Below are positions 11,884 through 30,553 of a stretch of DNA of 30,553 nucleotides, in pieces. This DNA comes from Clostridia bacterium (GTDB lineage Bacteria; Bacillota; Clostridia; Christensenellales; Borkfalkiaceae): NCBI GenBank assembly GCA_017503885.1, contig JAFVSF010000204.1, positions 1 to 30,553 on the forward strand. Reading direction: 5' to 3'. How positions within the stretch are numbered: the stretch's first letter is position 1; every line of letters starts with the position of its first letter. A program made the position numbers and the translations under genes. The notes beneath the pieces were generated by a model. It saw only the letters and a list, made by a program, of their open reading frames with translations, was not told where the DNA came from and searched no databases.

Positions 11884-12249
11884 TTATTTTGAAAACCAAT
11901 ATTGTTTTGCAAATGACTTACAATCATTTACGTATGAAAGATACGTTAAGTATTCTTCGTCATACTGATTAGCCGAACCTTTTCTCATAAGAGCAAACTC
12001 ATCGCCATAACTGTATTTAAGACTTACAAATGCCGATGCAAGTTCTTCATAACTTTTAATTTTGTGAACTTCCAACGTCAAATTGTACTCATAAACTTTT
12101 TCTACAAGTTCTTCGCCATTTACGTCATTTACTCGTTCAACTTCTACAATGTTTTCACAAAGAGAGAGTTCTAACTCTCCGTTTGGAAGCTCGTTAATTA
12201 AAAACTTCTCAGGCTGTACAGTTGATTGGGTTTTTGTTCCTACTTTCAT
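11884..12249 (-). CDS. Hypothetical tail-associated/chaperone-like protein, 121 aa (not Avd-like)
   Basis: AAAGGAG RBS; overlaps the RT 3' end by 41 nt. It has an acidic beta-rich N-half and a KYSYGDEFALMR...Y..Y...CK..AK C-terminal pattern seen in small fibre-associated proteins. Confidence 0.6.
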   Translation of the reverse strand: MKVGTKTQSTVQPEKFLINELPNGELELSLCENIVEVERVNDVNGEELVEKVYEYNLTLEVHKIKSYEELASAFVSLKYSYGDEFALMRKGSANQYDEEYLTYLSYVNDCKSFAKQYWFSK

Positions 12250-13309
12250 TTCTTATAATCTCCTTTAATTTATTTAAGTTTATTTTACCGTCAATGTACT
12301 TATTAGTTACACCGACGCTATTTGTATGTTGAATATATCCGTTATAAGAATAAAATGCATGTGCTCGTTTGCTAGTATACTTTCCATTAACTAATTTTCT
12401 ATAAAGTCTTAGCATTCTTAAAAATATACTTTTACGAACAATTATTTTATACCTATAAAACTTATATCCTACGAAATCAGTAAATCGCTGATTAGTGATT
12501 TTGCCTTTCTTATTGTCATACGGCATCCTATAAACTTGCCAGTTAGGTTTATAAAACAAGGAGAGAGGTTTCAAATATTCTTCCGAAAGAGTTTTAACTT
12601 TATGAAGTAAACGTTTATTTCCGCCATACATTACTACATCATCCATATATCTTGCCATGTACTTAACTTTCAATGTTTCTTTTACATATCTATCATATCC
12701 GGTTAAATAAAAGTTTGCAAGATGTGCAGAAGTATAATAACCAAGTGGAAGTCCATCACCTTTGTATGCATAAATTACTTTTGATAGCAAATCTACGATA
12801 CGCTTATCCTTAAACTTATTATGCAACATAGATATTAAAGTTTCTTTATTTATATGTTTGTAAAAGCCTTTAATATCTACTTGCAAACAGTACTTAGTAT
12901 TTTTAGTATCTTTTAGAAAGTGTTGAACGGAATACTTAGCATAGTGTGTACCTCTACCTTTAATAGAGGCACAACTATACTTGTAAAAAGACTTTTCTAA
13001 CAAAGGAGCTATTTGAAGCATTATAGCCCAATGAGTACATTGCTCAGGATAATATCTTGGCTTGCAAAGAGTTCTTAACTTTCTGCTCACTCCTTCTATT
13101 ACTGTATCTACATTGCCTTGTTCTAACTCTTTTGTTCCGTCTAATACTTCCTTTATAAACTTGCTTAAGTCTTCTGCATATTTATCGACGTCCGTCAATA
13201 CACGTTTAACGTCACGTCTATGTTGTTTTCTTTTAGAAGCTTTAAGTATAGCTTTCTTACAGTTCTCGATGCTTGTTATTTCTTCATGCTTTATTTTGTA
13301 TCGTTTCAT
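12209..13309 (-). CDS. DGR reverse transcriptase, ~366 aa
   Basis: RT motifs: KLRTLCKPRYYPEQCTHWAI, SCASIKGRGTH, YCLQVDIKGFYKHI, GLPLGYYTSAHLANFYL, catalytic RYMDD and DFVGY. It is adjacent to the TR. The likely start is ATG 13309, because the track's TTG start at 13354 lies in the structured spacer. Confidence 0.95.
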   Translation of the reverse strand: MKRYKIKHEEITSIENCKKAILKASKRKQHRRDVKRVLTDVDKYAEDLSKFIKEVLDGTKELEQGNVDTVIEGVSRKLRTLCKPRYYPEQCTHWAIMLQIAPLLEKSFYKYSCASIKGRGTHYAKYSVQHFLKDTKNTKYCLQVDIKGFYKHINKETLISMLHNKFKDKRIVDLLSKVIYAYKGDGLPLGYYTSAHLANFYLTGYDRYVKETLKVKYMARYMDDVVMYGGNKRLLHKVKTLSEEYLKPLSLFYKPNWQVYRMPYDNKKGKITNQRFTDFVGYKFYRYKIIVRKSIFLRMLRLYRKLVNGKYTSKRAHAFYSYNGYIQHTNSVGVTNKYIDGKINLNKLKEIIRNESRNKNPINCTA

Positions 13310-13339
13310 ATCAAAGTAGTCTGTATCTTTCTCTTTTGC

Positions 13340-13437
13340 CACACGCGCTTTCAATTTTTAATTTACTAACACGCCTTTGAATTCGGCAATATTTTCAGCA
13401 AGGGCTGAGGTTAAATGTATGCTAATTTTTCATTACA
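13340..13437 (-). ncRNA. DGR spacer (TR-RT) structured RNA segment
   Basis: The noncoding segment between TR and RT contains the hairpin TCAGC-CCTT-GCTGA (13408-13395) and a GCGTG-TTAGTA-[AATT AAA AATT]-GAAA-GCGCGT element. In BPP-1 the spacer 3' of TR is known to provide the priming structure. Confidence 0.55.
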
Positions 13438-13540
13438 GAGAATTACGGGCACCGTTGTTCCAGTTAGAATTACCAACGTCATTGTTCAAATTCCAATACC
13501 AAAGGCCATCATTATCGCCATTGTTCAAGTTGCCACCGAT
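13438..13540 (-). repeat. DGR template repeat (TR), 103 bp
   Basis: Aligns ungapped to the VR at 13631-13733 with 16 mismatches, all at TR adenines. It contains 29 A and 12 AAY codons in the VR reading frame. Confidence 0.97.
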
Positions 13541-13568
13541 GCATACAAGTCCCTAATTATTCAAACTG

Positions 13569-13609
13569 TAAGTCGACTTATAAGATACAGTAGGGGGAGG
13601 GCCCCCTAC
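13569..13609. promoter_or_regulatory. DGR retrohoming hairpin/cruciform (GC-rich 8-bp stem) plus an adjacent 12-bp palindrome
   Basis: gtaggggg-aggg-ccccctac at 13590-13609 lies 7 nt past the target stop codon. The palindrome taagtcgactta is at 13569-13580. Confidence 0.8.
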
Positions 13610-13616
13610 AACCCCC

Positions 13617-15035
13617 CTACAAAGACCTGTGAGAAAGACGGGCACCGCGGTTCCAGGAAGAATTACCAACGCCAAGGTCCAAATCCCAATACCAAAGGCC
13701 ATCAGTATCGCCATAGTTCAAGCGGCCACCGAAATAAGCCGTCCTAGCCCCTGCAGAAATGTAGAAGTAATCACAATAGTAAGTACTTGACGAGCCGCCA
13801 ACTTCAATAGGAAGAATAGCATCGTGATTTTCAGCATCAAAGCCTACTTCTTTTACGTAAGAATTCGTTTCTGCAAGTTTGTAAGAACAACGAATAAAGT
13901 TGCTGTTAGTTTCAGGACTAGTTGTATCCGTCCAATTCTCAAGGTTTTGACAAACATAAGGAACATAGTCCTTAATAGTTAAGTCTAAAATTTGTTTCCA
14001 AATATTTCCGTAAATGTTTTCAATCGTAAATACTTTAAACGAAGATTTACCTGCATTAGATGCAGAACCGGATGTTGCGACGATGCTGTCGGTATCACCA
14101 GTAAAGTTAGGTCTAACTGCAAGAGACGTAACAGAAACCGTAGGAGTTCTATCAAGTTCTACATAGAAACCTGCTCCATCGGTACCGGTAGATACAATTT
14201 TATAGTATTGTGCATTATCAGTAGAACCGTTTGCACAAACACAATACCCTGCTGCAAATGCGATTTGCTCACTCGCAAAATAGCATTTAGTTCCTGAAAC
14301 ACTCGATACGTTAATTGCATCTGTTTTATGACTGACAACACCGTTATAAATAGATTGAGAGTTTTTAGTAGCAGTCATAATAGTGAATAGCGGCTGTAAA
14401 ACCTCAGTAATTTCACTCATAGTGCTAATCAAATAGTATTCGCTAGTCGTATTTTCCAACGTATTATTCCAAGCTTTAGCATTGTTAAAGAATGCAGTTC
14501 TCGTTTTATTATGCGAAGGAATTTGTCCAGATTTAGATGCAAGGTATGAAGTACCGTCCATTGTTTCGTCAGAGCCTTCATAGCATCCGATGTCAACGTA
14601 ATTCCAATACGGTTGACCATTTCTATAAAATGCTTTAGGCAAATTGTAAAAAGAATAAAGTTTCTTTCTACATACCCAAATGTATTCGTAAGTTCCAAGC
14701 GTTTGTCTTGCTACATAAAAACGTTTGAACCTAGCAAATACGTTTCCGTGAACGTCGGTGAATTTTTGAGGGCTAAACAAATCAATATAGTCAAACGGGT
14801 TATCGTGAACTTCGCCAACGTTTGCCGTATAAGAAATGTCCCACGTAGAAATAGCACCTTTATAACGAGTTACTCGTTCACAGGCAGGAGAACTTGCTCC
14901 TTTTGTCCATCTAACGCCGTATTCAATATCGCTTTCAACTTTTCCACCTTGCGCATCAAGTAAAGATAACAAAGTTCCGTTAAGTTCGTCCATTTGGCTG
15001 TTAAATGAGTCGTCAGTTACTACTTTATAAGACAT
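13617..15035 (-). CDS. DGR target: receptor-binding/tail-fibre protein with a C-type-lectin (Mtd/FGE-like) C-terminal domain, 472 aa
   Basis: Contains IENIYGNIWKQI and ends GG......G...GLWYW.L......S.WN.GARLS, the typical CLec-fold DGR target signature. It contains the VR and has a GGAGGT RBS. Confidence 0.9.
   Translation of the reverse strand: MSYKVVTDDSFNSQMDELNGTLLSLLDAQGGKVESDIEYGVRWTKGASSPACERVTRYKGAISTWDISYTANVGEVHDNPFDYIDLFSPQKFTDVHGNVFARFKRFYVARQTLGTYEYIWVCRKKLYSFYNLPKAFYRNGQPYWNYVDIGCYEGSDETMDGTSYLASKSGQIPSHNKTRTAFFNNAKAWNNTLENTTSEYYLISTMSEITEVLQPLFTIMTATKNSQSIYNGVVSHKTDAINVSSVSGTKCYFASEQIAFAAGYCVCANGSTDNAQYYKIVSTGTDGAGFYVELDRTPTVSVTSLAVRPNFTGDTDSIVATSGSASNAGKSSFKVFTIENIYGNIWKQILDLTIKDYVPYVCQNLENWTDTTSPETNSNFIRCSYKLAETNSYVKEVGFDAENHDAILPIEVGGSSSTYYCDYFYISAGARTAYFGGRLNYGDTDGLWYWDLDLGVGNSSWNRGARLSHRSL
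13631..13733 (-). repeat. DGR variable repeat (VR) at the 3' end of the target gene
   Basis: Encodes FGGRLNYGDTDGLWYWDLDLGVGNSSWNRGARLS, whereas the TR encodes IGGNLNNGDNDGLWYWNLNNDVGNSNWNNGARNS. Confidence 0.97.
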
Positions 15036-16110: not shown

Positions 16111-16901
16111 TATAAACCTCCATTTATACTGCTAAGTACAGACATTTTAGTAGGTACAAGTATTGGCATAACTACATCGTATTTACCAATAACTCTGCTA
16201 ACGTTAAATTCCTTTGGAAATACGTGACCTGCTTCTACAAGTTTATCGTATTTTTCCTGGTTACTAATACCTACATAATCAATACCTTTACTTATACAAA
16301 GTCCATTTAAGTAATCACTCATTAGCTGTCCAGATACAAGTTTTATGCTATAAATATAACTTTGCTCTACCCACTCACGAGTGTCTTCTTGTGAAAATGC
16401 TTTTGTAATTTTGCATTTATAATTTAACCATCCGACTCTATCGCCATTTACTACAGAATCGTCCCAGTATTTATAAGTTCTATTTCCTTCGTCGTCTTCT
16501 ACATAGAATACACAGTCATCGTAGTCTAAAAATACAAGTTTACTTCCAATATATCCGTATGCAAGATAGTCCGTTCCGTTAACGCCTGTGCTACTTCTTG
16601 CAGTAATATCGTAAAATCCGTTAGGATACATCGGAGTAGAGCCGTTAGCAGTAGACATCAATGATTTTAAGTCAAACGCTTGAGTAGATAAAAACTTAGG
16701 AAAGTTTGAAAGGTCTAACCAGTAATTTTTTAAGTATCTATCTTCTTGTTCGTATCTAGTAGTAGATACTGTTAACAAAAAATACGGGTTGTTAAGTTTG
16801 CTGCTTATTACATAAGGAGAACCGTCCTTGTTTTGGACGGATTTGTCAATACTAAATGTTTCTCCTCTATGAACGTTTATTTCATTGTTAAACGTTTTCA
16901 T
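16110..16901 (-). CDS. Probable virion structural protein (fibre/baseplate adaptor-like), 263 aa
   Basis: An N-terminal I.V.RGETF......DGSPY beta-sandwich pattern. It lies between portal and fibre genes and is ATGA-coupled to the portal stop. Confidence 0.45.
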   Translation of the reverse strand: MKTFNNEINVHRGETFSIDKSVQNKDGSPYVISSKLNNPYFLLTVSTTRYEQEDRYLKNYWLDLSNFPKFLSTQAFDLKSLMSTANGSTPMYPNGFYDITARSSTGVNGTDYLAYGYIGSKLVFLDYDDCVFYVEDDEGNRTYKYWDDSVVNGDRVGWLNYKCKITKAFSQEDTREWVEQSYIYSIKLVSGQLMSDYLNGLCISKGIDYVGISNQEKYDKLVEAGHVFPKEFNVSRVIGKYDVVMPILVPTKMSVLSSINGGL

Positions 16902-18955
16902 TGAATTCCTCCTTTAACTTGTGCTCCGGAGTTTTGTGCATTACCTACGACTTCTCTGTTTTGTGCGCGGTTTTTCTCGTTGGTTTTTTCAACTTCACCT
17001 GCATGAGTTTCTCCGGATGCTTTAGGTCCGCTACCAGGTCTAGCACCACCTCTTTGCTCTCCAGATGCCTGAAGCGTTTGAATTATAAGTTGTTGCAACT
17101 GAGGATTACTCATAATCGCTTTCTCAATGTCAGGAGGCAAGTGTTGTTCATTTTCAGTAATGCCAGCAAGAACAGTTTTTGCAAGAGGATATTGGAGCGA
17201 GTCCATAATATTCCAGAAAAGTTTTAACGTTCTCGGGTCTGCTACGTTGCCCATAGCACCTTGAATAAACTTATCCTGGGTTTCTTGCCACATTTGTGCT
17301 CTGTTTTGACTTAACGTTGCTGCAGGGTCGCTGTCAAATCGTAAATCGTCACGATAGTAAACTTGACCATACTTATCTTTGTCAAGAAACATATATTTAT
17401 TCCAAGTTTCTTCCTTTTGAGAACCGTCAGGAAGTACTTTAACAAATCTACGAGGTTCGTCGCTAAATGCAAGTAAATACTTAAGTACAAGTTCATAAAG
17501 TCCTGCAAATGCTGCAGACTTCATAACTCTCAAGCTCTCAATACGTCCTGCTGTCAACGCAGCTGCAAGTTGTTTAGCTTTACCGGAAGTAGCTGTAGTA
17601 TCTCTTGCACCTTGGAAAGAGTCAGTAACGCCGGACGAAGCTTTACCGCCTTCGTATAATGTAGCAGCCATTACAAGGTCTTGGGAAGTGTCCGCTGCCA
17701 CAGCTCTACTTTGAACCATTGCCGCCTCTTCCGAACTTCTTACGCCAAGAACTTTAATTGTGTCGTCCGTATCGCTAATTTTAACTTTTTCCGGTTTAGT
17801 TAAAATTGTACCGGACTTCATAGTTTTTTCAAGAGCTTTACTTAATAATTTGTTAATTGCGTCTTGTGACTCCAATGTAACTTTAACTTCACTCGTACCG
17901 TAAATATTGTCAAGTGAACTTATAGCAGGACGAGGAATAAAAGGAAGTTGAGTAATTTTATAAAAAGGTATTTTAGTACCTGCAGTTAAAAATACTCTGC
18001 TCTTATAATGGTCTCGTTCTTTTTCATCGTCAGTTTCACCTACGTCGTAAGGATTGTAAATCTCTTCTAAGTCACTATCAAGAATTTCTTCTGTAGCATT
18101 TTCATACTTAAACTTTTTGTTGCCGCAGTTTCTACAAGTATCACCCATAGGATTGATTGTTCCGCAAGTAGTACAAGTTCTAAGTTTACGAATTTGCCAA
18201 TACTCTTCGTTGCAAATAACTTGTCTGCTATGTGCAGCATACATAAATAAGCCTACAACTCGTTCGTCGTTTAAGTAATAGCAAGAAATAACTTCTATTA
18301 CGTTATTTGCACTTGAAGGAGTAATTCTACGTCCATACAAGTCCCAAATTCTTGTAAGTGAAATTTCCTTTCTTTCAAAAATGTATTCAAGTTGATGATA
18401 GTCGCTAACGCCAGGTTGAGGAACTACTTGGTCAACTGTACAAAGGTCAATTTTTACGTTGCCGGAACGTTCGTGAGTGTTGTCAAGAGAGTCCCACCAC
18501 ACTTTGTACCAGCTGGTACCGTCTACATACGTTGAACGTTCACTCTTATCGTTTAAGTATTTAGTAAATATACCGTCTACTTCAAACTTCAAATAATTTT
18601 CAGTTACAGAAACAAGAGGCAAATCCGTCTTGTATCTTGGTCTAATTTTAGGCATCGGGATAGAGTTATCAATTTTACTTTCAATAAGCTCGTATACCAT
18701 CTTACGTAAAGAACGACTTTTACGAGTGCTCTCTTTGCCATCTTTAGTTAATGCGTTAAGAGTTCCGTAATAAGCCTTACGCCATTTAGCCAAGTTTTCA
18801 GGATTCGCCTCTTCGGTATTCTTTTGTGCAGATAATGCAAGAGAATACAATTCTGCAAATTTGCCTACGAGTTCGTTTTCCTCTTCAGTATTAACGTACT
18901 GTTCAGCAGTATTTGACTGTAAATACAAATCTAATCTCGTCAATTTTTTCGCCAT
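16898..18955 (-). CDS. Portal protein (P22/T7-like) with an internal CxxC...CxxC insertion, 685 aa
   Basis: Directly follows TerL. It has portal-like segments (DGTSWYKVWWD, IYGTSEVKVTLESQDAINKLLSK, ASSGVTDSFQG...ATSGKAKQL) and a Gln-rich C-terminal barrel-like region. Confidence 0.8.
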   Translation of the reverse strand: MAKKLTRLDLYLQSNTAEQYVNTEEENELVGKFAELYSLALSAQKNTEEANPENLAKWRKAYYGTLNALTKDGKESTRKSRSLRKMVYELIESKIDNSIPMPKIRPRYKTDLPLVSVTENYLKFEVDGIFTKYLNDKSERSTYVDGTSWYKVWWDSLDNTHERSGNVKIDLCTVDQVVPQPGVSDYHQLEYIFERKEISLTRIWDLYGRRITPSSANNVIEVISCYYLNDERVVGLFMYAAHSRQVICNEEYWQIRKLRTCTTCGTINPMGDTCRNCGNKKFKYENATEEILDSDLEEIYNPYDVGETDDEKERDHYKSRVFLTAGTKIPFYKITQLPFIPRPAISSLDNIYGTSEVKVTLESQDAINKLLSKALEKTMKSGTILTKPEKVKISDTDDTIKVLGVRSSEEAAMVQSRAVAADTSQDLVMAATLYEGGKASSGVTDSFQGARDTTATSGKAKQLAAALTAGRIESLRVMKSAAFAGLYELVLKYLLAFSDEPRRFVKVLPDGSQKEETWNKYMFLDKDKYGQVYYRDDLRFDSDPAATLSQNRAQMWQETQDKFIQGAMGNVADPRTLKLFWNIMDSLQYPLAKTVLAGITENEQHLPPDIEKAIMSNPQLQQLIIQTLQASGEQRGGARPGSGPKASGETHAGEVEKTNEKNRAQNREVVGNAQNSGAQVKGGIQ

Positions 18956-18975: not shown

Positions 18976-19007
18976 ATTATATTACGATTATGTTCAAAAT
19001 GTTACCT
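18976..19007 (-). promoter_or_regulatory. Candidate late promoter, copy 2: AGGTAACA-N18-TATAAT (portal operon)
   Basis: AGGTAACA at 19007-19000 includes the TerL stop codon. An 18-nt spacer follows, then TATAAT at 18981-18976, 20 nt before the portal ATG. Confidence 0.65.
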
Positions 19008-20651
19008 ACTTTTGTATCTCTTATTTTGAACGTAATCGTCAGGTGCCCACTCTAATGGAGCTCCGTATCTTTTTATGAACTCTTCTTGCTCAGCAGAATT
19101 CATTTGTTCGTAATCCTCCCACATATCCGGATACCATTTGTTAAATACAAGATAGTTCCTGTCAGGCATAGCCTCTTCACCAGTTACAAGTTTAATCAAA
19201 CGAGTCAATGCTTGTGTATCGGCGTCAACCATATCGTCGTGTTTCATAAACGGAAATTTACTATGTTGAATTACAAATTTGTCAGTCGCAGTTAATGGTT
19301 CGTTAGTGTCCCACTCTACTTCAGCATTTTCGCTTTCAGTAAAGTCATTAGGAATATGAACAACTAATGTTGCAATGAATGGCGATACCGCTTGTGCACG
19401 TGAATACTTGCCGCCCATCGGGTTAACTCCTACAATAGGAGGTACTCCGTCAGTATATCGCAATGTATCAATGATTGCGGAACCGTTTGCCTTATCTTCT
19501 ATGATGAGCTCGTCTATTCCAGGAAATTGTTCAAGGAACTTTTTAATTCGCGATACTGTGTCTACGAAACCCATACGTTTGTTTACGAGTTTATATAAGA
19601 ACACGTGATTTTGTCGAAGTCCCCAAAGTTCCATTGCGACCATGTCCGACGTTTCAGTCTTTTTGAACGTAGCGTCTATTGATAAGCAAGTATACTCAAA
19701 ATCTTCAAACCTTACGTCACGTCTACTATACAATTGCCACCAGCTCTCACGGAATAAATTACCGTTTTGTGCCGACGGGTGACCTTGATACAATGCGTTC
19801 CAAGTATATTCACCGTCACCTGCAATAACGAGTGCCTTCTTACTTTTAAGCCACTCGTTGTCGTTCCTAATCTTAGGAGGAATGTTCTTGTCGCCAAGAT
19901 GTTCACCCATCAACGCTTCACCAACTTTACGACCGAGTGGGTCGTTTTCAGCGTTCTCGCATTCGCAAGGAAGGTTAATAGTTTTCCAGATATACTCAGA
20001 CCATTTTTCCTCAATATAGCCAATTACGTCGTTTTCAACCCATCGAGTTTGTATTACAATTAACTTGCCACCGGGGTGAATACGAGACTGAACTGAAGGT
20101 CCCATTTCACCATGTATTTTTGCAAGGATTGTTTCCGACTGAGCTGCTTCTTTGTTCTTAATAGGGTCGTCAATTATGAACAATTCTGCACCGTATGATG
20201 TAATACCTGCCTTAAGACCTGCAGCACGACATCTACCGCCATCTTTTGTTTCCCATAATGCAACACCTTGTACTTGGTCGTTAGGAAGAACTCTAAATAC
20301 GTCCGTTGCATATTCGTTGAACTTGTCTCTGTTCTTACGGCTAAAACCTTCTGCAATAGTACCGTCGTACGAACAAATAATTACTGCGTCTTGAGGATGT
20401 TTGCCAAGGAACCAGGAAGGTAACGTTTCAGTTACTGTATATGATTTGCCGTGCTGAGGAGGCACCGACAAGAGAAGGATGTCCATTGCTTTGCCAGTAG
20501 GAGGCATATCGAGGAATTCTTGTATCTCTCCACATAAGTATCTATGAAATGCAGTCATACAAAAGCCTGGGTTGGCGTATTGAACATATGCTGCATAATT
20601 TTTTTGCAATTTACGTCTAAATAATTCACCGTCTAATGTATTAGCTATCAT
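19002..20651 (-). CDS. terL: Terminase large subunit, ~549 aa
   Basis: Walker A LLLSVPPQHGKS, Walker B LFIIDDPIK, coupling motif VIQTRW, and RNase-H nuclease motifs LSIDATFK and HDDMVDA. The likely start is ATG 20651 (GGAG RBS, ATGA overlap); the track start is a TTG. Confidence 0.95.
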   Translation of the reverse strand: MIANTLDGELFRRKLQKNYAAYVQYANPGFCMTAFHRYLCGEIQEFLDMPPTGKAMDILLLSVPPQHGKSYTVTETLPSWFLGKHPQDAVIICSYDGTIAEGFSRKNRDKFNEYATDVFRVLPNDQVQGVALWETKDGGRCRAAGLKAGITSYGAELFIIDDPIKNKEAAQSETILAKIHGEMGPSVQSRIHPGGKLIVIQTRWVENDVIGYIEEKWSEYIWKTINLPCECENAENDPLGRKVGEALMGEHLGDKNIPPKIRNDNEWLKSKKALVIAGDGEYTWNALYQGHPSAQNGNLFRESWWQLYSRRDVRFEDFEYTCLSIDATFKKTETSDMVAMELWGLRQNHVFLYKLVNKRMGFVDTVSRIKKFLEQFPGIDELIIEDKANGSAIIDTLRYTDGVPPIVGVNPMGGKYSRAQAVSPFIATLVVHIPNDFTESENAEVEWDTNEPLTATDKFVIQHSKFPFMKHDDMVDADTQALTRLIKLVTGEEAMPDRNYLVFNKWYPDMWEDYEQMNSAEQEEFIKRYGAPLEWAPDDYVQNKRYKSR

Positions 20652-20836
20652 TTCTTTTTCTCCGTTATCCAAGCAAGATTAAATGCAGTCAAAACTATGA
20701 CGTTTAAACAATTAAATATAAGTCCGATGTAATCAGTAACAGTAAACTTAGTAGAACATGCGAGTCCGACGCTTACGACGAATATTACTATAGTAATTAT
20801 CCAAAAGATTATGCTTATAATTTTAACTATCCTCAT
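20648..20836 (-). CDS. Small two-TM membrane protein, 62 aa
   Basis: MRIVKIISIIFWIITIVIFVVSVGL...YIGLIFNCLNVIVLTAFNLAWI, with an AAGGTG RBS before ATG 20836. Confidence 0.6.
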   Translation of the reverse strand: MRIVKIISIIFWIITIVIFVVSVGLACSTKFTVTDYIGLIFNCLNVIVLTAFNLAWITEKKK

Positions 20837-22339: not shown

Positions 22340-22835
22340 GGAGGAAACAACCCAGGGCCAAAGTCCCATTGAATAACGAAAACCTCGCCGGTCCTTTGTG
22401 GCCAGGAGTGGGCCTCCAAGTCCAGTCCAGCCCTCAGGAAGGCATCCAGAGTCGGCCTCACGGCCCGGAGTTTGGAAGGCTCCCATCGTACTCTGGTATC
22501 CGACGAGACGGACTTGCCCCGCGAGTGGGTGGACTTTCCGGAACAATCCCCGGCCACGTGACCAGTGAGCAATAACTGGCGTCAGCAAAGACGAATAGAA
22601 ACGTGCGAGCGCGTAGGCTACGACTGCAAAGACTGGCAGTATAACGCGCGAATGGTAGCCAAAGCGCCTAAACTGGTGGGCGCTGTGTAGTACACCATCG
22701 GTAGGCATATCAAAGCCGAGCCCGTAAAATAGAGCAGCAGGGAGGTTGACTTGTCCCTCTCTGCAAATATGAGCACCCGGATGGCAAAGGATAGGGTCCG
22801 ACTCCCTTGAGGCTCAACACCGCAATAGCGGCATA
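22340..22835 (+). ncRNA. Candidate large structured noncoding RNA (~500 nt), family unassigned
   Basis: 58% GC over 22381-22800 (243/420 by hand count), against roughly one third in the coding regions. It has nested long-range stems, hairpins and a pseudoknot, and the G-U pairs favour the plus strand. No credible RBS-led ORF is present. Confidence 0.65.
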
Positions 22836-22847
22836 AGGAGTACCATT

Positions 22848-23288
22848 ATGAAGGTATTAGTAAGAAAAAACAGCAGCACCAACACCGGCTACGAACTCGT
22901 AACCATCGACGACGCAGGCAAAGAAGTCGCAGTAGCAATCGACAAGACTTATCCAGGCGAACCGTTCACCCTTGTACTTCCAGCAAACGAAGTCAACCGC
23001 AAATACTTCAACAGCAAGAAAGTTGACGCTGCAGGCGGCTCTATTGAGCTCACTTTCAAGGAAAGCAAGACGTTAGGTCCTCGCACTGAGTCAGCTCCTC
23101 GCAAAGGCCTTGAGGAATACTTGGAAGGCGAAGACAAAGCAATGTACCTCGCACTCGTAGAGAAGGCTAAGGCAAATCGTGAAGCAGCTAACAAGAAAGC
23201 ACCTATGACTGAGTATGAAAAGCGCGTAAGAGCCGTTGAACGTGCTCAAGCTAAACTCGCAGAGCTCCAAGCTCAACAAAATGCATAA
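22848..23288 (+). CDS. Early protein, paralog family member A, 146 aa
   Basis: TAAGGAG RBS and strong codon bias. It shares both N- and C-terminal motifs with 25104-25607. Confidence 0.85.
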   Translation: MKVLVRKNSSTNTGYELVTIDDAGKEVAVAIDKTYPGEPFTLVLPANEVNRKYFNSKKVDAAGGSIELTFKESKTLGPRTESAPRKGLEEYLEGEDKAMYLALVEKAKANREAANKKAPMTEYEKRVRAVERAQAKLAELQAQQNA

Positions 23289-23305
23289 GGACGGAGGCTA
23301 ACACA

Positions 23306-23467
23306 ATGGCAAAAGAATACTGTAAATGCTGCGGCATAGAAATGCACGACGATTACGAATATGAATGTCCAGTTTGCGGCAACATCGTCTGCTCAATTTG
23401 CTTTGATGGCGAAATGTGCGACGACTGCCGTCAAGCTTTCAACGAAGGACATAGCGAACTTAACTAA
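23306..23467 (+). CDS. Small zinc-finger protein with four CxxC pairs, 53 aa (below the ORF-track cutoff)
   Basis: GGAGG RBS; MAKEYCKCCGIEMHDDYEYECPVCGNIVCSICFDGEMCDDCRQAFNEGHSELN. Confidence 0.75.
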   Translation: MAKEYCKCCGIEMHDDYEYECPVCGNIVCSICFDGEMCDDCRQAFNEGHSELN

Positions 23468-23479
23468 GGAGCACAAACT

Positions 23480-23872
23480 ATGACAAAAATAATGCAATGG
23501 ATGGCCTTGCCGGAGGAGTTGAGGCCGTCCAACTACGACTTAAAGCACATATCCTTACAAGATACGGAACTCTTGTTCAAAAAGGCTGACAAATTAGGCG
23601 TCCTTGACCAATTCGCAGAGTTGTTTTGGGACGCTATAAGCCTTGCTCGTCAAGAAAAGCCGTCTCTGCAAGAGTGCTTGAACCTGCTCGAGGAGCAAAA
23701 ACGCCTAATGGGCAGGCAATACGACAAAATGCCGTCAAACACGTTCGTTAGTAAGGCTCGTAAGCACTACGTAGCTACAAAATACAACGAAATAGAGCAC
23801 CAAATTCGCTGGATGGTCGATACGTTCAAGCTCACACGAACATCCGAGCCATATTTATTGGAGGTTAAGTAA
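23480..23872 (+). CDS. Hypothetical helical protein, 130 aa
   Basis: TAAGGAG RBS; TAATG-coupled to the next gene. Confidence 0.75.
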   Translation: MTKIMQWMALPEELRPSNYDLKHISLQDTELLFKKADKLGVLDQFAELFWDAISLARQEKPSLQECLNLLEEQKRLMGRQYDKMPSNTFVSKARKHYVATKYNEIEHQIRWMVDTFKLTRTSEPYLLEVK

Positions 23873-24090
23873 TGGAATACAGAATAAACGTTGCAAAACT
23901 TGAGCAACATCAAGGCAAAATGAAATACGTATATGTATTTTGTACTAAACAGCTCGGAATGTACAGCGCCAAACGAGCTTACGACGAGATTAAAGCTAAA
24001 TTTCCCGAGCCTGAGTATCAAGTAACGCTTGAAGTTTGGGAATACAGTGGCCGCGAGGTCGATGCAGCTGAGTATTTTGCAAAAGTTTAA
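23872..24090 (+). CDS. Hypothetical protein, 72 aa
   Basis: GGAGGT RBS and a TAATG overlap with the upstream gene. Confidence 0.75.
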   Translation: MEYRINVAKLEQHQGKMKYVYVFCTKQLGMYSAKRAYDEIKAKFPEPEYQVTLEVWEYSGREVDAAEYFAKV

Positions 24091-24153
24091 TTCGCAATAT
24101 GGCAGCTGAACCACCGCCGAGTCAATTTTAAGATAATTTTGGTCAGGCGAGAC

Positions 24154-24457
24154 TGATAACTGATAATCATTTTTATCAGTCACAGCATTTTTTCTAAAAG
24201 ATTTTATAATTTTAAGAGGCCCCCCCTGAAAATAAAAGTTATGGTAAAGAAATTATGCTATCAAAAAGATAGGTAAAAATTAGATTATCAGTCGCAAGTA
24301 TCAGTCTTAACTTGTTTCATCCTAAATAAGGAAACAAAAAACAAAAATTATTTTTATATATGTATATAATAGAAATAATTATGGGGGGGGGCCTCATTTT
24401 TTTATAAAAAGATTGAAAAATTTTGCTGTGACTGATAATTTTTTTTATCAGTTATCA
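24154..24457. repeat. Nested inverted-repeat AT-rich element (candidate replication origin or recombination/operator site)
   Basis: The 34-bp arms at 24154-24187 and 24424-24457 (TGCTGTGACTGATAA-N6-TTATCAGTTATCA) are identical outside N6. Inner arms GAGGC7 (24216-24226) and G9CCTC (24383-24395) each lie 28 nt from an outer arm. Extra TTATCAGT/GTATCAGT half-sites are at 24285 and 24298. Confidence 0.85.
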
Positions 24458-24517
24458 CTCTAACCACCAATCGTCATTTAATCTATAAACCTACCAATCA
24501 AAAAGGAGTATAAAAGT

Positions 24518-24955
24518 ATGAAAATCGGTAAATCAGTAGTCAACTTTTCTCTCACAGCATCGTCCGGCTGCCAGTATACCTCTCTTGCAGACGTCCCTTA
24601 CTGGTCCTTGTACAGTCGTCCAGGTGACTGTGTGCAAGAGGACATCGGCAATCAATGGCGTAGCGACCGAGCACTCACCTTTGCAGAACTCAAACAATAC
24701 CTTGAGCATTACCCTGGCCGTCGACTGCTTAACGCATATCCTCGCAAATCGCCTAACATTCGCATATCATACGCCATAAGTAAGCGAGGCAACAACATAG
24801 ACATATTCAGCAAATGGACAGGAGAGATTTATGCCACCTTTGCAATAGAGCAACCTGACAGTATCGCCGGCCTTCGCTTAACCTACCTTGCAAACAACGC
24901 ACCTTGCAACAAAACATACTACTATCTCAAGGCAGCAGCATACCTTACACGGTAA
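24518..24955 (+). CDS. Hypothetical protein, 145 aa
   Basis: AAAAGGAG RBS and an intact ORF just downstream of the inverted-repeat element. Confidence 0.7.
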   Translation: MKIGKSVVNFSLTASSGCQYTSLADVPYWSLYSRPGDCVQEDIGNQWRSDRALTFAELKQYLEHYPGRRLLNAYPRKSPNIRISYAISKRGNNIDIFSKWTGEIYATFAIEQPDSIAGLRLTYLANNAPCNKTYYYLKAAAYLTR

Positions 24956-25103
24956 ATCTTAAAAATCAAGGTGGAACAATCTTACCATTCTTTTCATATA
25001 ATATAATAGAACCGGCCGATAGACCGATAACCTATAATTTAATCAACTGATGGAGCAGTTGTTAGATAAAACAATAAATATAATTAAAAGGAGACTATTT
25101 ACA

Positions 25104-30456: not shown

Positions 30457-30553
30457 TCTTAAAATGGCTTAACGTTCCAGTTATTACAAATCAAGAGGAT
30501 GGCTCTGGCTATGGCGATGGCTCTGGCTATGGCGATGGCGATGGCTCTGGCTA
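30441..30553 (+). CDS. Gly-rich GSGYGD-repeat protein; partial, runs off the window end
   Basis: GAGGTG RBS and ATG 30441: MEKELILKWLNVPVITNQEDGSGYGDGSGYGDGDGSG... Confidence 0.65.
   Translation, partial: MEKELILKWLNVPVITNQEDGSGYGDGSGYGDGDGSG

What the first reader, a model, noticed from the sequence alone, without database searches (positions are those of the whole stretch)
24154..24457. 304-bp mirror-symmetric element of nested inverted repeats and iteron-like half-sites
Seen: the outer 34-bp arms are themselves palindromic (CTGATAA-N6-TTATCAG). The inner GAGGCn / GnCCTC arms each lie exactly 28 nt inside the outer arms. The core is very AT-rich, with two more TATCAGT half-sites and a CTATC-N5-GATAG palindrome. 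The spacers keep T-tracts on the top strand, so protein-binding positions are symmetric while the spacers are not. Inference: a bidirectional replication origin with initiator or helicase-loading sites on each side, or a site-specific inversion/resolution locus containing a TATAAT (24365-24370). No recombinase or initiator is recognisable in this window.
Basis: partly seen in the sequence, partly recalled or inferred. Interest (0 to 1): 0.65.

Follow-up and report, generated by a model that had tools for sequence, protein, structure and literature searches.

The report
Phage origin-like dyad control element
A conserved, one-per-genome, mirror-symmetric 312-bp non-coding module in an uncultured gut phage is most likely its replication origin, with a promoter for the replication genes built into it; the design is already known from staphylococcal islands, so it is a well-documented but fairly ordinary find.

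Summary
At 24150-24461, two ~84-nt inverted arms (62/84 complementary; shuffles 40±1.7) flank the least stable 150 bp of the contig. Six of the window's ten exact TTATCAGT boxes lie here.

The window is a fragment of a ~52-kb virulent DGR-bearing gut phage. All 15 relatives examined with this region keep the module at the same place, ~2 kb after the late/early divergence point, once per genome.

Across lineages the outer boxes change (TGATAAC, GATAAT, CACAT, GGTTT). The architecture stays: boxes, an A/T-tract spacer with AAAAGATT, a pure G/C 9-13-mer, an 87-190-bp AT-rich core, then the mirror image.

Relatives encode a primase-SF3 helicase homologous to SaPI5 PriRep5 (E 1.8e-24), whose known origins have this layout.

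- **Best reading (0.45):** a replication origin that also carries a conserved rightward sigma-A-type promoter (TTGAAA-17-TGaTAATTT).
- **Main rival (0.33):** a pure early/middle promoter-operator switch.
- **Against the origin reading:** the helicase gene lies 15-17 kb away, and its C-terminal domain does not co-vary with box type.

Inversion switch, MITE and RNA-stem/terminator readings are rejected. This scan has already reported the same design on other phage DNA.

The parts
24150..24461 (.). Whole dyad module: two ~84-nt inverted arms around an AT-rich core
   Evidence: 62/84 matches against 40±1.7 in shuffles; z -8.3. Conserved in 15 relatives.
24152..24187 (.). Left outer site. TTATCAGT boxes at 24152-59(-), 24159-66(-) and 24173-80(+), plus the conserved ACAGCA tail. 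Palindrome CTGATAA-N6-TTATCAG at 24160-24179.
   Evidence: alignment of 18 arms.
24188..24215 (.). Left 28-nt A/T-tract spacer containing AAAAGATTTT
   Evidence: (D1). The AAAAGATT/AATCTTTT motif is kept in all lineages, in either orientation on the left.
24216..24232 (.). Left G/C block GAGGCCCCCCC plus TGAAAA
   Evidence: Invariant in the window clade. In other lineages it is replaced by other pure G/C 9-13-mers.
24227..24382 (.). AT-rich core, 156 bp, 79% A+T; candidate DNA unwinding region
   Evidence: 24232-24381 is the least stable 150-bp window of the 30.5-kb contig. Core length is 87-190 bp and A+T 78-90% in relatives. In six complete genomes the cores rank 1, 3, 4, 5, 13 and 22 among least-stable windows.
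24285..24305 (+). Two direct boxes in the core (TTATCAGT, GTATCAGT), 13 bp apart
   Evidence: AAAGTATCA is kept in 7 of 9 close relatives.
24321..24335 (+). Conserved core motif CCTAAATAAGGAAAC
   Evidence: Alignment. Function unknown.
24347..24370 (+).
   Evidence: There is no -35, and the distance to the G-run varies from 7 to 25 nt.
24383..24395 (.). Right G/C block GGGGGGGGGCCTC
24396..24423 (+). Right 28-nt spacer: a T7/A5 UP-like tract plus the -35 TTGAAA (24413-24418) of a predicted rightward promoter
   Evidence: AAAAAGATTGAAAAA is conserved in all lineages.
24424..24459 (.). Right outer site. Boxes at 24431-38(-), 24445-52(+) and 24452-59(+, 1 mismatch); palindrome at 24432-24451. It overlaps the extended -10 TGaTAATTT (24433-24441) and the predicted start near 24448.
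24460..24517 (+). Conserved leader CTCTAACCAYCAATCGTCATTTAA and the AAGGAG ribosome-binding site of the next gene

Best explanation
The module is the phage's replication origin, built like the origins used by self-loading Rep/PriRep helicases of staphylococcal islands, and it also carries the promoter of the replication-gene operon.

**Shown**
- It is a unique, positionally conserved dyad.
- Each arm carries short lineage-specific boxes: two in tandem, plus one inverted across a 6-bp A/T spacer.
- Each arm also has an A/T-tract spacer and a 9-13-bp pure G/C block.
- The arms enclose an easily melted 87-190-bp AT-rich core.
- The phage family encodes a PriRep5-like primase-SF3 helicase.
- The right arm holds a conserved sigma-A-type promoter. 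Its -10 lies inside the outer boxes and it points into the 20-kb replication operon.

**Inferred**
- A box-reading protein occupies both arms, either the helicase's C-terminal winged helix or an early protein that recruits it.
- One helicase hexamer is loaded on each side and the core melts.
- The G/C blocks act as strand-independent clamps that limit the bubble.
- Box occupancy at the right arm throttles the promoter, giving autoregulation as in iteron plasmids.
- Outward transcription may help unwinding through negative supercoiling.
For: **Unique cis site.**
- Box palindromes and G/C blocks occur nowhere else in about 51.8 kb of composite genome.
- The rule 'two pure G/C stretches of at least 8 nt flanking 60-260 bp of at least 75% A+T' hits exactly once in each of six complete relatives.

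**Conserved place and architecture, changing boxes.**
- TGATAAC, GATAAT, ATGTG/CACAT and GGTTT/AAACC lineages keep the same layout.
- This is how replicon specificity families look.

**Physical properties.**
- The core is the least stable 150 bp of the contig.
- Cores rank 1-5 in four of six complete genomes.
- The cumulative GC-skew minimum lies at 24-26 kb and the maximum at the convergence point near 44 kb.

**Candidate initiator.**
- Relatives encode Prim-Pol + D5_N + SF3 helicase.
- It is homologous to SaPI5 PriRep5, PDB 7OLA (E 1.8e-24).
- Its C-end models as helix-turn-helix plus a beta hairpin.

**Published layout.**
- SaPI origins span about 300 bp, with 5-7-nt iterons oppositely disposed around a central AT-rich region.
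- They have inverted iterons separated by short AT-rich DNA on each side.
- One hexamer is thought to load per side (PMC9371898; bioRxiv 10.64898/2026.10.17.759575).

**Not just the next gene's promoter.**
- The module is kept intact where the downstream gene (24518-24955) is deleted (G201; contig joint 24466>24941).
- No other intergenic region in the genome has iteron-like repeats.
Against: - The presumed initiator gene lies 15-17 kb downstream, whereas SaPI origins abut rep.
- The helicase C-terminal domain does not co-vary with box type. Its identity to the window type is 53% in G209 (same boxes), 53% in G202 and 53% in G206 (different boxes).
- The recognition-helix region is nearly the same in all lineages.
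- A good promoter with its -10 inside the right boxes is conserved in 9 of 11 relatives. That by itself could explain the right arm.
- GC skew is confounded by the switch of gene strand.
- The winged-helix fold matches are all non-significant.
- There are no replication, binding or coverage data; only assembled contigs were available.
Confidence: 0.45

Rival explanations
1. It is a pure transcriptional switch between the immediate-early genes (22848-24090) and the middle/replication operon.
- The right arm is a sigma-A promoter with an UP-like tract.
- The outer palindromes are operators for a lineage-specific phage regulator.
- The left arm is a second operator set, and in some lineages a leftward antisense promoter. 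It cooperates with the right arm by looping across the bent AT-rich core, as in the phi29 p4/p6 region or the coliphage 186 flanking sites (from memory).
For: - TTGAAA-16/17/18-(TGn)TAATTT/TAAATT/TAAAAT/TAAACT sits at the same place in 9 of 11 relatives, with its -10 inside the outer boxes.
- L010 and L011 also have the mirror promoter on the left.
- The AAAAAGATTGAAAAA motif is lineage-independent, as expected for a signal read by host RNA polymerase.
- Box type tracks an adjacent early gene. A homologue of the 130-aa protein (23480-23872) lies just upstream in every TGATAAC-box genome, including G209 at 32% identity. It is absent from the G204, G205 and G206 lineages.
- The helicase C-terminal domain does not track box type.
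Against: - No DNA-binding family was found among the early proteins.
- The 130-aa protein models as an all-helical bundle (pLDDT 87) with no DNA-binding match.
- The reading does not explain the strand-independent G/C blocks, the conserved core length, or the core boxes.
- In the window clade the left-arm promoter is weak (TAAAAA, no T at -7), and there is no leftward gene to drive.
Confidence: 0.33
2. It is another single-copy cis site of the phage, such as a terminase recognition (pac/cos) region or a partition or dimer-resolution site. Protein-binding boxes would flank bent AT-rich DNA.
For: - The module is a unique, conserved, symmetric box array.
- The TerL gene is about 3.5 kb away.
Against: - The module sits inside the early operon, across the divergence point from the terminase genes.
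- Contig ends of the relatives flagged as having terminal repeats fall at different map positions, so no fixed end maps here.
- No Par or recombinase family hit appears in the gene tables.
Confidence: 0.07
3. It is a ~185-nt structured RNA, or a long-stem intrinsic terminator. GAGGC7 would pair with G9CCTC, followed by a U-run.
For: - The 11-17-bp GC stem is possible in the window clade (RNA fold z -4.8).
- A T-run follows the right block in 8 of 9 close relatives.
Against: - G204 and G205 have G-runs on the same strand on both sides, so no stem can form.
- L020 has a 3-nt mismatch in the stem, and its T-run is lost.
- The interior is 79-90% A+T and poorly conserved.
- There is no Rfam match.
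- The arms show no compensatory changes.
Confidence: 0.04
4. It is an invertible promoter switch or a MITE-like mobile insertion.
For: Inverted repeats flank a TATAAT-bearing segment.
Against: - The core has the same orientation relative to the genes in every assembly, including the distant G206.
- No recombinase family hit appears in about 52 kb.
- It is single-copy in the phage and absent from the rest of the 1.8-Mb bin. The downstream 145-aa protein, used as a probe for the phage, was not found in 200 genomes of the host family.
- It is present at the same site in relatives whose neighbouring proteins are only 47-57% identical.
Confidence: 0.02

Closest known systems
SaPI/PICI replication origins used by self-loading Rep or fused PriRep5 helicases (PMC9371898; bioRxiv 10.64898/2026.10.17.759575; Ubeda 2007 and 2012 as cited there)
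   Same: - About 300 bp of non-coding DNA.
- Short boxes oppositely disposed around a central AT-rich region.
- On each side, an inverted box pair across a short A/T spacer.
- The replicon encodes a homologous primase-SF3 helicase with a C-terminal helix-turn-helix plus wing.
   Different: - The origin is not next to the helicase gene; it lies 15-17 kb upstream.
- The boxes form 7-6-7 palindromes with a 7-bp tandem neighbour, not arrays of 6-12 iterons.
- Pure G/C 9-13-mers bracket the core.
- Two boxes lie inside the core.
- A promoter is built into one arm.
- Helicase C-terminal domain and box type do not co-vary here.
Phage P4 ori/crr with the alpha primase-helicase (from memory; no open paper was retrievable)
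   Same: The same protein family (Prim-Pol/D5_N/SF3 with a C-terminal DNA-binding domain) reads short repeats at a site that is not adjacent to its own gene.
   Different: P4 uses octamer direct and inverted iterons at two separated sites. No second site was found here.
Phage T4 oriF/oriG, T7 primary origin and lambda ori with pR (from memory): origins coupled to promoters
   Same: A promoter is part of, or activates, an AT-rich unwinding region.
   Different: In those systems the unwinding element lies downstream of the promoter. Here the AT-rich core lies upstream, behind the outward-facing promoter(s).
phi29 early/late switch region (A2c/A2b/A3 with p4 and p6) and lambdoid operators (from memory)
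   Same: Palindromic sites overlap promoters in a bent AT-rich region of 200-300 bp in a phage of a Gram-positive-like host. Site sequence is lineage-specific.
   Different: No p4-, Cro- or CI-like protein was found. G/C clamps and a core of conserved length are not features of those switches.
Fur box (7-1-7, TGATAATnATTATCA; from memory)
   Same: The half-site TGATAA(T) is the same. The left site even contains GATAATCATT.
   Different: The spacing is 7-6-7, not 7-1-7, and TCATT is not conserved in relatives. Rejected.

Membership tests
SaPI/PriRep-type iteron origin | About 300 bp of non-coding DNA with short repeats on both sides of a central AT-rich region, the two sides in opposite orientation | tested here: met
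   The layout is kept in five box lineages.
SaPI/PriRep-type iteron origin | At least two repeats per side, including an inverted pair separated by short AT-rich DNA | tested here: met
   Three boxes per side. CTGATAA-N6-TTATCAG has A/T-only or A/T-rich spacers.
SaPI/PriRep-type iteron origin | The replicon encodes a self-loading SF3 (or MCM-like) helicase with a C-terminal winged-helix origin reader | tested here: inconclusive
   Homology to PriRep5 (7OLA) is clear, E 1.8e-24 over residues 279-632, and the domain content fits. However, the gene lies outside the window and is seen only in relatives. The C-end model has pLDDT 68, and only non-significant winged-helix matches were found.
SaPI/PriRep-type iteron origin | The origin lies immediately downstream of the rep gene | tested here: not met
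   The helicase gene starts 15-17 kb downstream, and no intergenic DNA flanks it.
SaPI/PriRep-type iteron origin | Repeat sequence matches the specificity of the helicase C-terminal domain | tested here: not met
   C-terminal domain identity to the window type is 53% in G209 (same boxes), G202 and G206 (other boxes). Only five lineages were compared, so the test is weak.
SaPI/PriRep-type iteron origin | Binding, melting and autonomous replication shown | not testable with these tools
   No raw reads or cultures are available; the runs are held as contigs only.
Sigma-A promoter with overlapping operator | -35/-10 hexamers at 16-18 bp, positionally conserved, pointing at genes | tested here: met
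   TTGAAA(24413-18)-17-TGa-TAATTT(24436-41). Equivalent sites occur in 9 of 11 relatives.
Sigma-A promoter with overlapping operator | A cognate DNA-binding regulator encoded by the phage | tested here: inconclusive
   No HTH, RHH or similar family was found in the early genes. The co-occurring 130-aa protein has no DNA-binding fold match.
Invertible promoter switch | Both orientations present in populations, and a site-specific recombinase nearby | tested here: not met
   One orientation in all assemblies. No recombinase family hits.
MITE / small transposon | Multiple copies, target-site duplication, presence/absence polymorphism | tested here: not met
   Single copy. No flanking duplication. 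Present in all relatives at the same site.
Intrinsic terminator / structured RNA | Base-pairing of the G/C arms conserved or compensated | tested here: not met
   G-runs lie on the same strand in G204 and G205. No compensatory changes. No Rfam hit.

The most novel reading that the evidence does not exclude
The module may be a 'clamped' origin/switch of a kind not yet described. In this reading:
- A melting region is delimited by strand-independent homopolymer G/C clamps.
- It is opened by negative supercoiling from outward-facing promoters in the two arms.
- Lineage specificity is set by a small all-helical early protein (the 130-aa family next to it), not by the helicase itself.

That protein would recruit a PriRep-like helicase whose conserved winged helix reads the lineage-independent AAAAGATT spacer motif.
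Probability: 0.12. Interest if true: 0.6.

Novelty: new variant of a known kind. Interest (0 to 1): 0.38.

Why it matters
Replication origins of uncultured gut phages are almost never mapped. This module gives a concrete, testable candidate for a whole family of ~50-55-kb DGR-bearing phages.

A simple sequence rule finds it once per genome: two pure G/C blocks bracketing 60-260 bp of at least 75% A+T.

The lineage-specific boxes in an otherwise constant scaffold offer a natural specificity-swap series. That series could identify the box reader, whether helicase or early protein.

If the G/C blocks act as bubble clamps, that would add a design element to iteron-type origins.

If the module is instead only a promoter-operator switch, it marks the early-to-middle control point of the family. 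Either way it is a variant of known designs, not a new principle.

Tried and rejected
**Searches that found nothing useful**
- No nucleotide match in INPHARED phages.
- The exact outer-arm pattern is absent from IMG/VR.
- The flanking small proteins gave no IMG/VR relatives.
- The metagenome scan with the 19-mer CTAAATAAGGAAACAAAAA returned 67 loci, none with the flanking box and G/C-block signature, so they look like chance hits. That scan was wasted.
- The protein atlas gave nothing for the 145-aa and 130-aa neighbours.
- A literature search for P4 ori/crr found nothing open.

**Read-level test**
- Only Logan contigs were available. They show collinear DNA (X1) and fragmentary contigs of relatives in a metatranscriptome.
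- They hold no inversion joints and no start or end pile-ups, so they say nothing about transcription or copy number.

**Fold searches**
- The 130-aa protein gave nothing.
- The helicase C-end gave only winged-helix-type hits with E>1.

**Readings rejected**
- MITE, invertible switch and RNA stem/terminator.
- Fur box: the spacing is wrong.
- DnaA box: TTATCAGTC is not TTATCCACA.
- Protelomerase site: the centre is not palindromic.
- N4-type hairpin promoter.
- Small ORFs in the core: not conserved.

**Other checks**
- Helicase C-terminal domain against box type: tested and not supported.
- Several contigs break just after the right G-run (L012, L019, G203) or elsewhere in the element (L009, L017). 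I read this as a homopolymer or coverage artefact, not biology.

Full report
**1. Context**

The window is the whole 30,553-bp contig C211 of a 1.8-Mb, 81%-complete metagenomic bin. It is a phage fragment.
- Late genes lie on the minus strand: TerL 19002-20672, portal 16898-18955, a tail protein, and a DGR reverse transcriptase at 12209-13354.
- Small early genes lie on the plus strand from 22848 onward.
- Strong AAGGAG ribosome-binding sites suggest a Firmicute-like host; this is inference.
- The 145-aa protein just downstream (24518-24955), used as a probe for the phage, was not found in 200 genomes of the bin's family, so this is not a common prophage there.
- Homologues of that protein lie on 50-54-kb contigs from animal gut metagenomes.
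- Walking along those contigs gives the full map. The plus-strand operon carries a PD-(D/E)XK nuclease, ligase, ThyX, dUTPase, AAA_24, an SNF2 helicase, a 678-aa Prim-Pol/D5_N/SF3 primase-helicase and a 634-aa protein.
- That operon converges at about 44 kb with the minus-strand late operon, which includes a 2738-aa protein.

**2. The observation**

- The inverted repeat spans 24150-24233 / 24378-24461 (84 nt, 74%).
- It gives 62 of 84 ungapped matches, against 39.9±1.7 (maximum 47) in 200 shuffles.
- The strand folds on itself with z = -8.3.
- The 7-6-7 palindrome occurs only at 24160 and 24432.
- GAGGCCCCCC occurs only at 24216(+) and 24386(-).
- Six of the ten exact TTATCAGT boxes in the window lie in the element.
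- 24232-24381 is the least stable 150-bp window of the contig.

**3. Comparative anatomy**

Nine Logan/ENA relatives keep the module in the same intergenic gap and in the same orientation. Their neighbouring protein is 47-95% identical to the window's.

Aligning 18 arms gives this consensus: GGT.AG.GAGAcTGATAAcTGATAA-N6-TTATCAGTaACAGCA, then about 28 A/T-rich nt, then GAGGCCCCCCCTGAAAA. Cores in this clade are 154-178 bp.

IMG/VR genomes found through the primase-helicase extend the series.

| Genome | Helicase identity to window type | Outer boxes | Notes |
|---|---|---|---|
| G201 | 93% | same as window | lacks the downstream 145-aa gene |
| G209 | 73% | tandem CTGATAACTGATAAC / GTTATCAGTTATCAC | |
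| G206 | 71% | GATAATGATAA | |
| G202 | 70% | ATGTG/CACAT plus GCCCTTGGCC inverted pairs | |
| G204/G205 | 63% | GGTTT x4 against AAACC | |

Features constant in all of them:
- position about 2 kb after the late/early divergence point;
- an A/T-tract spacer with AAAAGATT(G/T)AA;
- a pure G/C 9-13-mer on each side;
- an 87-190-bp core of 78-90% A+T with a (TA)-rich stretch next to the right block.

The rule 'two pure G/C stretches of at least 8 nt flanking 60-260 bp of at least 75% A+T' hits exactly one place in each of six complete genomes. Box palindromes and G/C blocks occur nowhere else in about 51.8 kb of composite genome.

One decisive detail: in G204 and G205 both blocks are G-runs on the same strand. 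In L020 and G202 the blocks are GnCm mixtures. The blocks are therefore conserved as G/C-only duplex segments, not as complementary arms.

**4. What this excludes**

- **RNA or single-strand DNA stem (terminator, sRNA).**
  - No pairing is possible in G204/G205.
  - There are no compensatory changes.
  - There is no Rfam hit.
- **Mobile element.**
  - The module is single-copy.
  - It is present in all relatives at one site.
  - It has no target-site duplication.
- **Inversion switch.**
  - The core orientation relative to the genes is the same in every assembly. This includes G206, once its strand is read in the early-gene sense.
  - A DNA-run contig is collinear.
  - No recombinase family appears in the gene tables.
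- **Fur box.** The spacing is 7-6-7, not 7-1-7.

**5. Origin reading**

The family's primase-helicase is a clear homologue of SaPI5 PriRep5 (7OLA, E 1.8e-24). Its last ~60 residues model as helix-turn-helix plus a beta hairpin. The fold hits are nearly all winged-helix proteins but are not significant.

Published SaPI origins have these features (PMC9371898; bioRxiv 10.64898/2026.10.17.759575):
- a span of about 300 bp;
- 5-7-nt iterons oppositely disposed around a central AT-rich region of about 100 bp;
- inverted iterons separated by short AT-rich DNA on each side;
- one hexamer thought to load per side.

The present module fits that layout. It is the only iteron-like intergenic region in the genome. 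It lies at the broad minimum of cumulative GC skew, at 24-26 kb, with the maximum at about 44 kb. That signal is confounded by the switch of gene strand. In six complete genomes, cores rank 1, 3, 4, 5, 13 and 22 among least-stable windows.

**6. Evidence that cuts the other way**

- The helicase gene is 15-17 kb away, not adjacent.
- A sigma-A-type promoter is conserved in the right arm: TTGAAA (24413-24418), 17 bp, TGa, TAATTT (24436-24441). Equivalents occur in 9 of 11 relatives. Its -10 lies inside the outer boxes, and its -35 lies in the lineage-independent AAAAAGATTGAAAAA. L010 and L011 carry the mirror promoter on the left.
- I tested the prediction that box type follows the helicase C-terminal domain. 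It does not: identity to the window type over residues 601-678 is 53% in G209 (same boxes), G202 and G206 (other boxes). The putative recognition helix is nearly invariant across lineages.
- A homologue of the 130-aa early protein (23480-23872) sits just upstream of the module in every TGATAAC-box genome, including G209 at 32% identity. It is missing from G204, G205 and G206. However, its confident model (pLDDT 87) is an all-helical bundle with no DNA-binding match.
- No early protein hits a DNA-binding family.

**7. Verdict**

| Reading | Probability |
|---|---|
| Replication origin of SaPI/PriRep design, with the replication-operon promoter built into its right arm | 0.45 |
| Pure early/middle promoter-operator switch | 0.33 |
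| Other single-copy cis site | 0.07 |
| RNA stem / terminator | 0.04 |
| Inversion switch or MITE | 0.02 |

Under the best reading, the G/C blocks would act as strand-independent clamps around the unwinding region.

Shown: the architecture, its uniqueness, its conservation, the promoter-like signal and the helicase homology. Inferred: binding, loading, melting and autoregulation.

The scan has already reported iteron dyads around AT-rich cores beside primase-helicase genes in other phages. This is therefore a variant of a known design. It is distinguished by its distance from the helicase gene, the G/C clamps, the palindromic box arrangement and the embedded promoter.

Noticed in passing
window 12209-15035: A DGR is present. 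The reverse transcriptase at 12209-13354 hits phrog_1423 at 1.7e-78, and it sits next to a tail protein at 13617-15035 (phrog_5302), which is the likely variable target.
   Followed up: partly
window 22340-22835: A ~500-bp island of 50-58% GC with no credible ORF lies between the divergent late and early operons. An Rfam search at E<=1 found nothing there.
   Followed up: partly
window 24518-24955: The 145-aa gene right after the element is dispensable. G201 has only a 17-codon remnant with the same ribosome-binding site. A contig in a metatranscriptome run joins 24466 to 24941.
   Followed up: yes
L011:1850-1925: One relative carries a 35-bp tandem duplication of the left inner arm (TTTTAGATTTTWATGAGGCCCCCCCTGAAAATATT). 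That gives it two left G/C blocks.
   Followed up: no
window 24091-24130: A non-coding block, CAAGATGGCAGCTGAACCACC, lies just after the 72-aa gene. It is conserved even in distant relatives (L010, L020) and is unexplained.
   Followed up: no
window 24971-25002 and G201:14585-14625: The phage-specific motif GG(T/A)A(A/T)(C/T)A...N18...TATAAT precedes the 185-aa gene in both genomes, downstream of the element. This suggests a separate phage-specific promoter class.
   Followed up: partly
L021:7880-7995: Relatives carry what looks like a tRNA gene in a 205-bp gap of the replication operon, ending ...GGTTCGAGTCCGACCTCTTGCACCA. It is not in the window and was not checked with ARAGORN.
   Followed up: no
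L021:13941-14054: A 17-nt perfect inverted repeat, GATTTTAATATATAATA / TATTATATATTAAAATC, with 44 nt between the arms. It lies in the gap after the 634-aa gene at the end of the replication operon in relatives.
   Followed up: no
window 30502-30553: The contig ends in a GGCTCTGGCTATGGCGATGG-type tandem repeat. That repeat matches the start of contig C78 of the same bin at 89%. A relative's contig (L004) ends at nearly the same map position, so this is probably an assembly break at a repeat.
   Followed up: partly
L021:14302-22037: Relatives encode a 2738-aa protein at the end of the late operon. Its first ~461 residues are the ORF that runs off the window's left end (1385 to 3, minus strand).
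   Followed up: no
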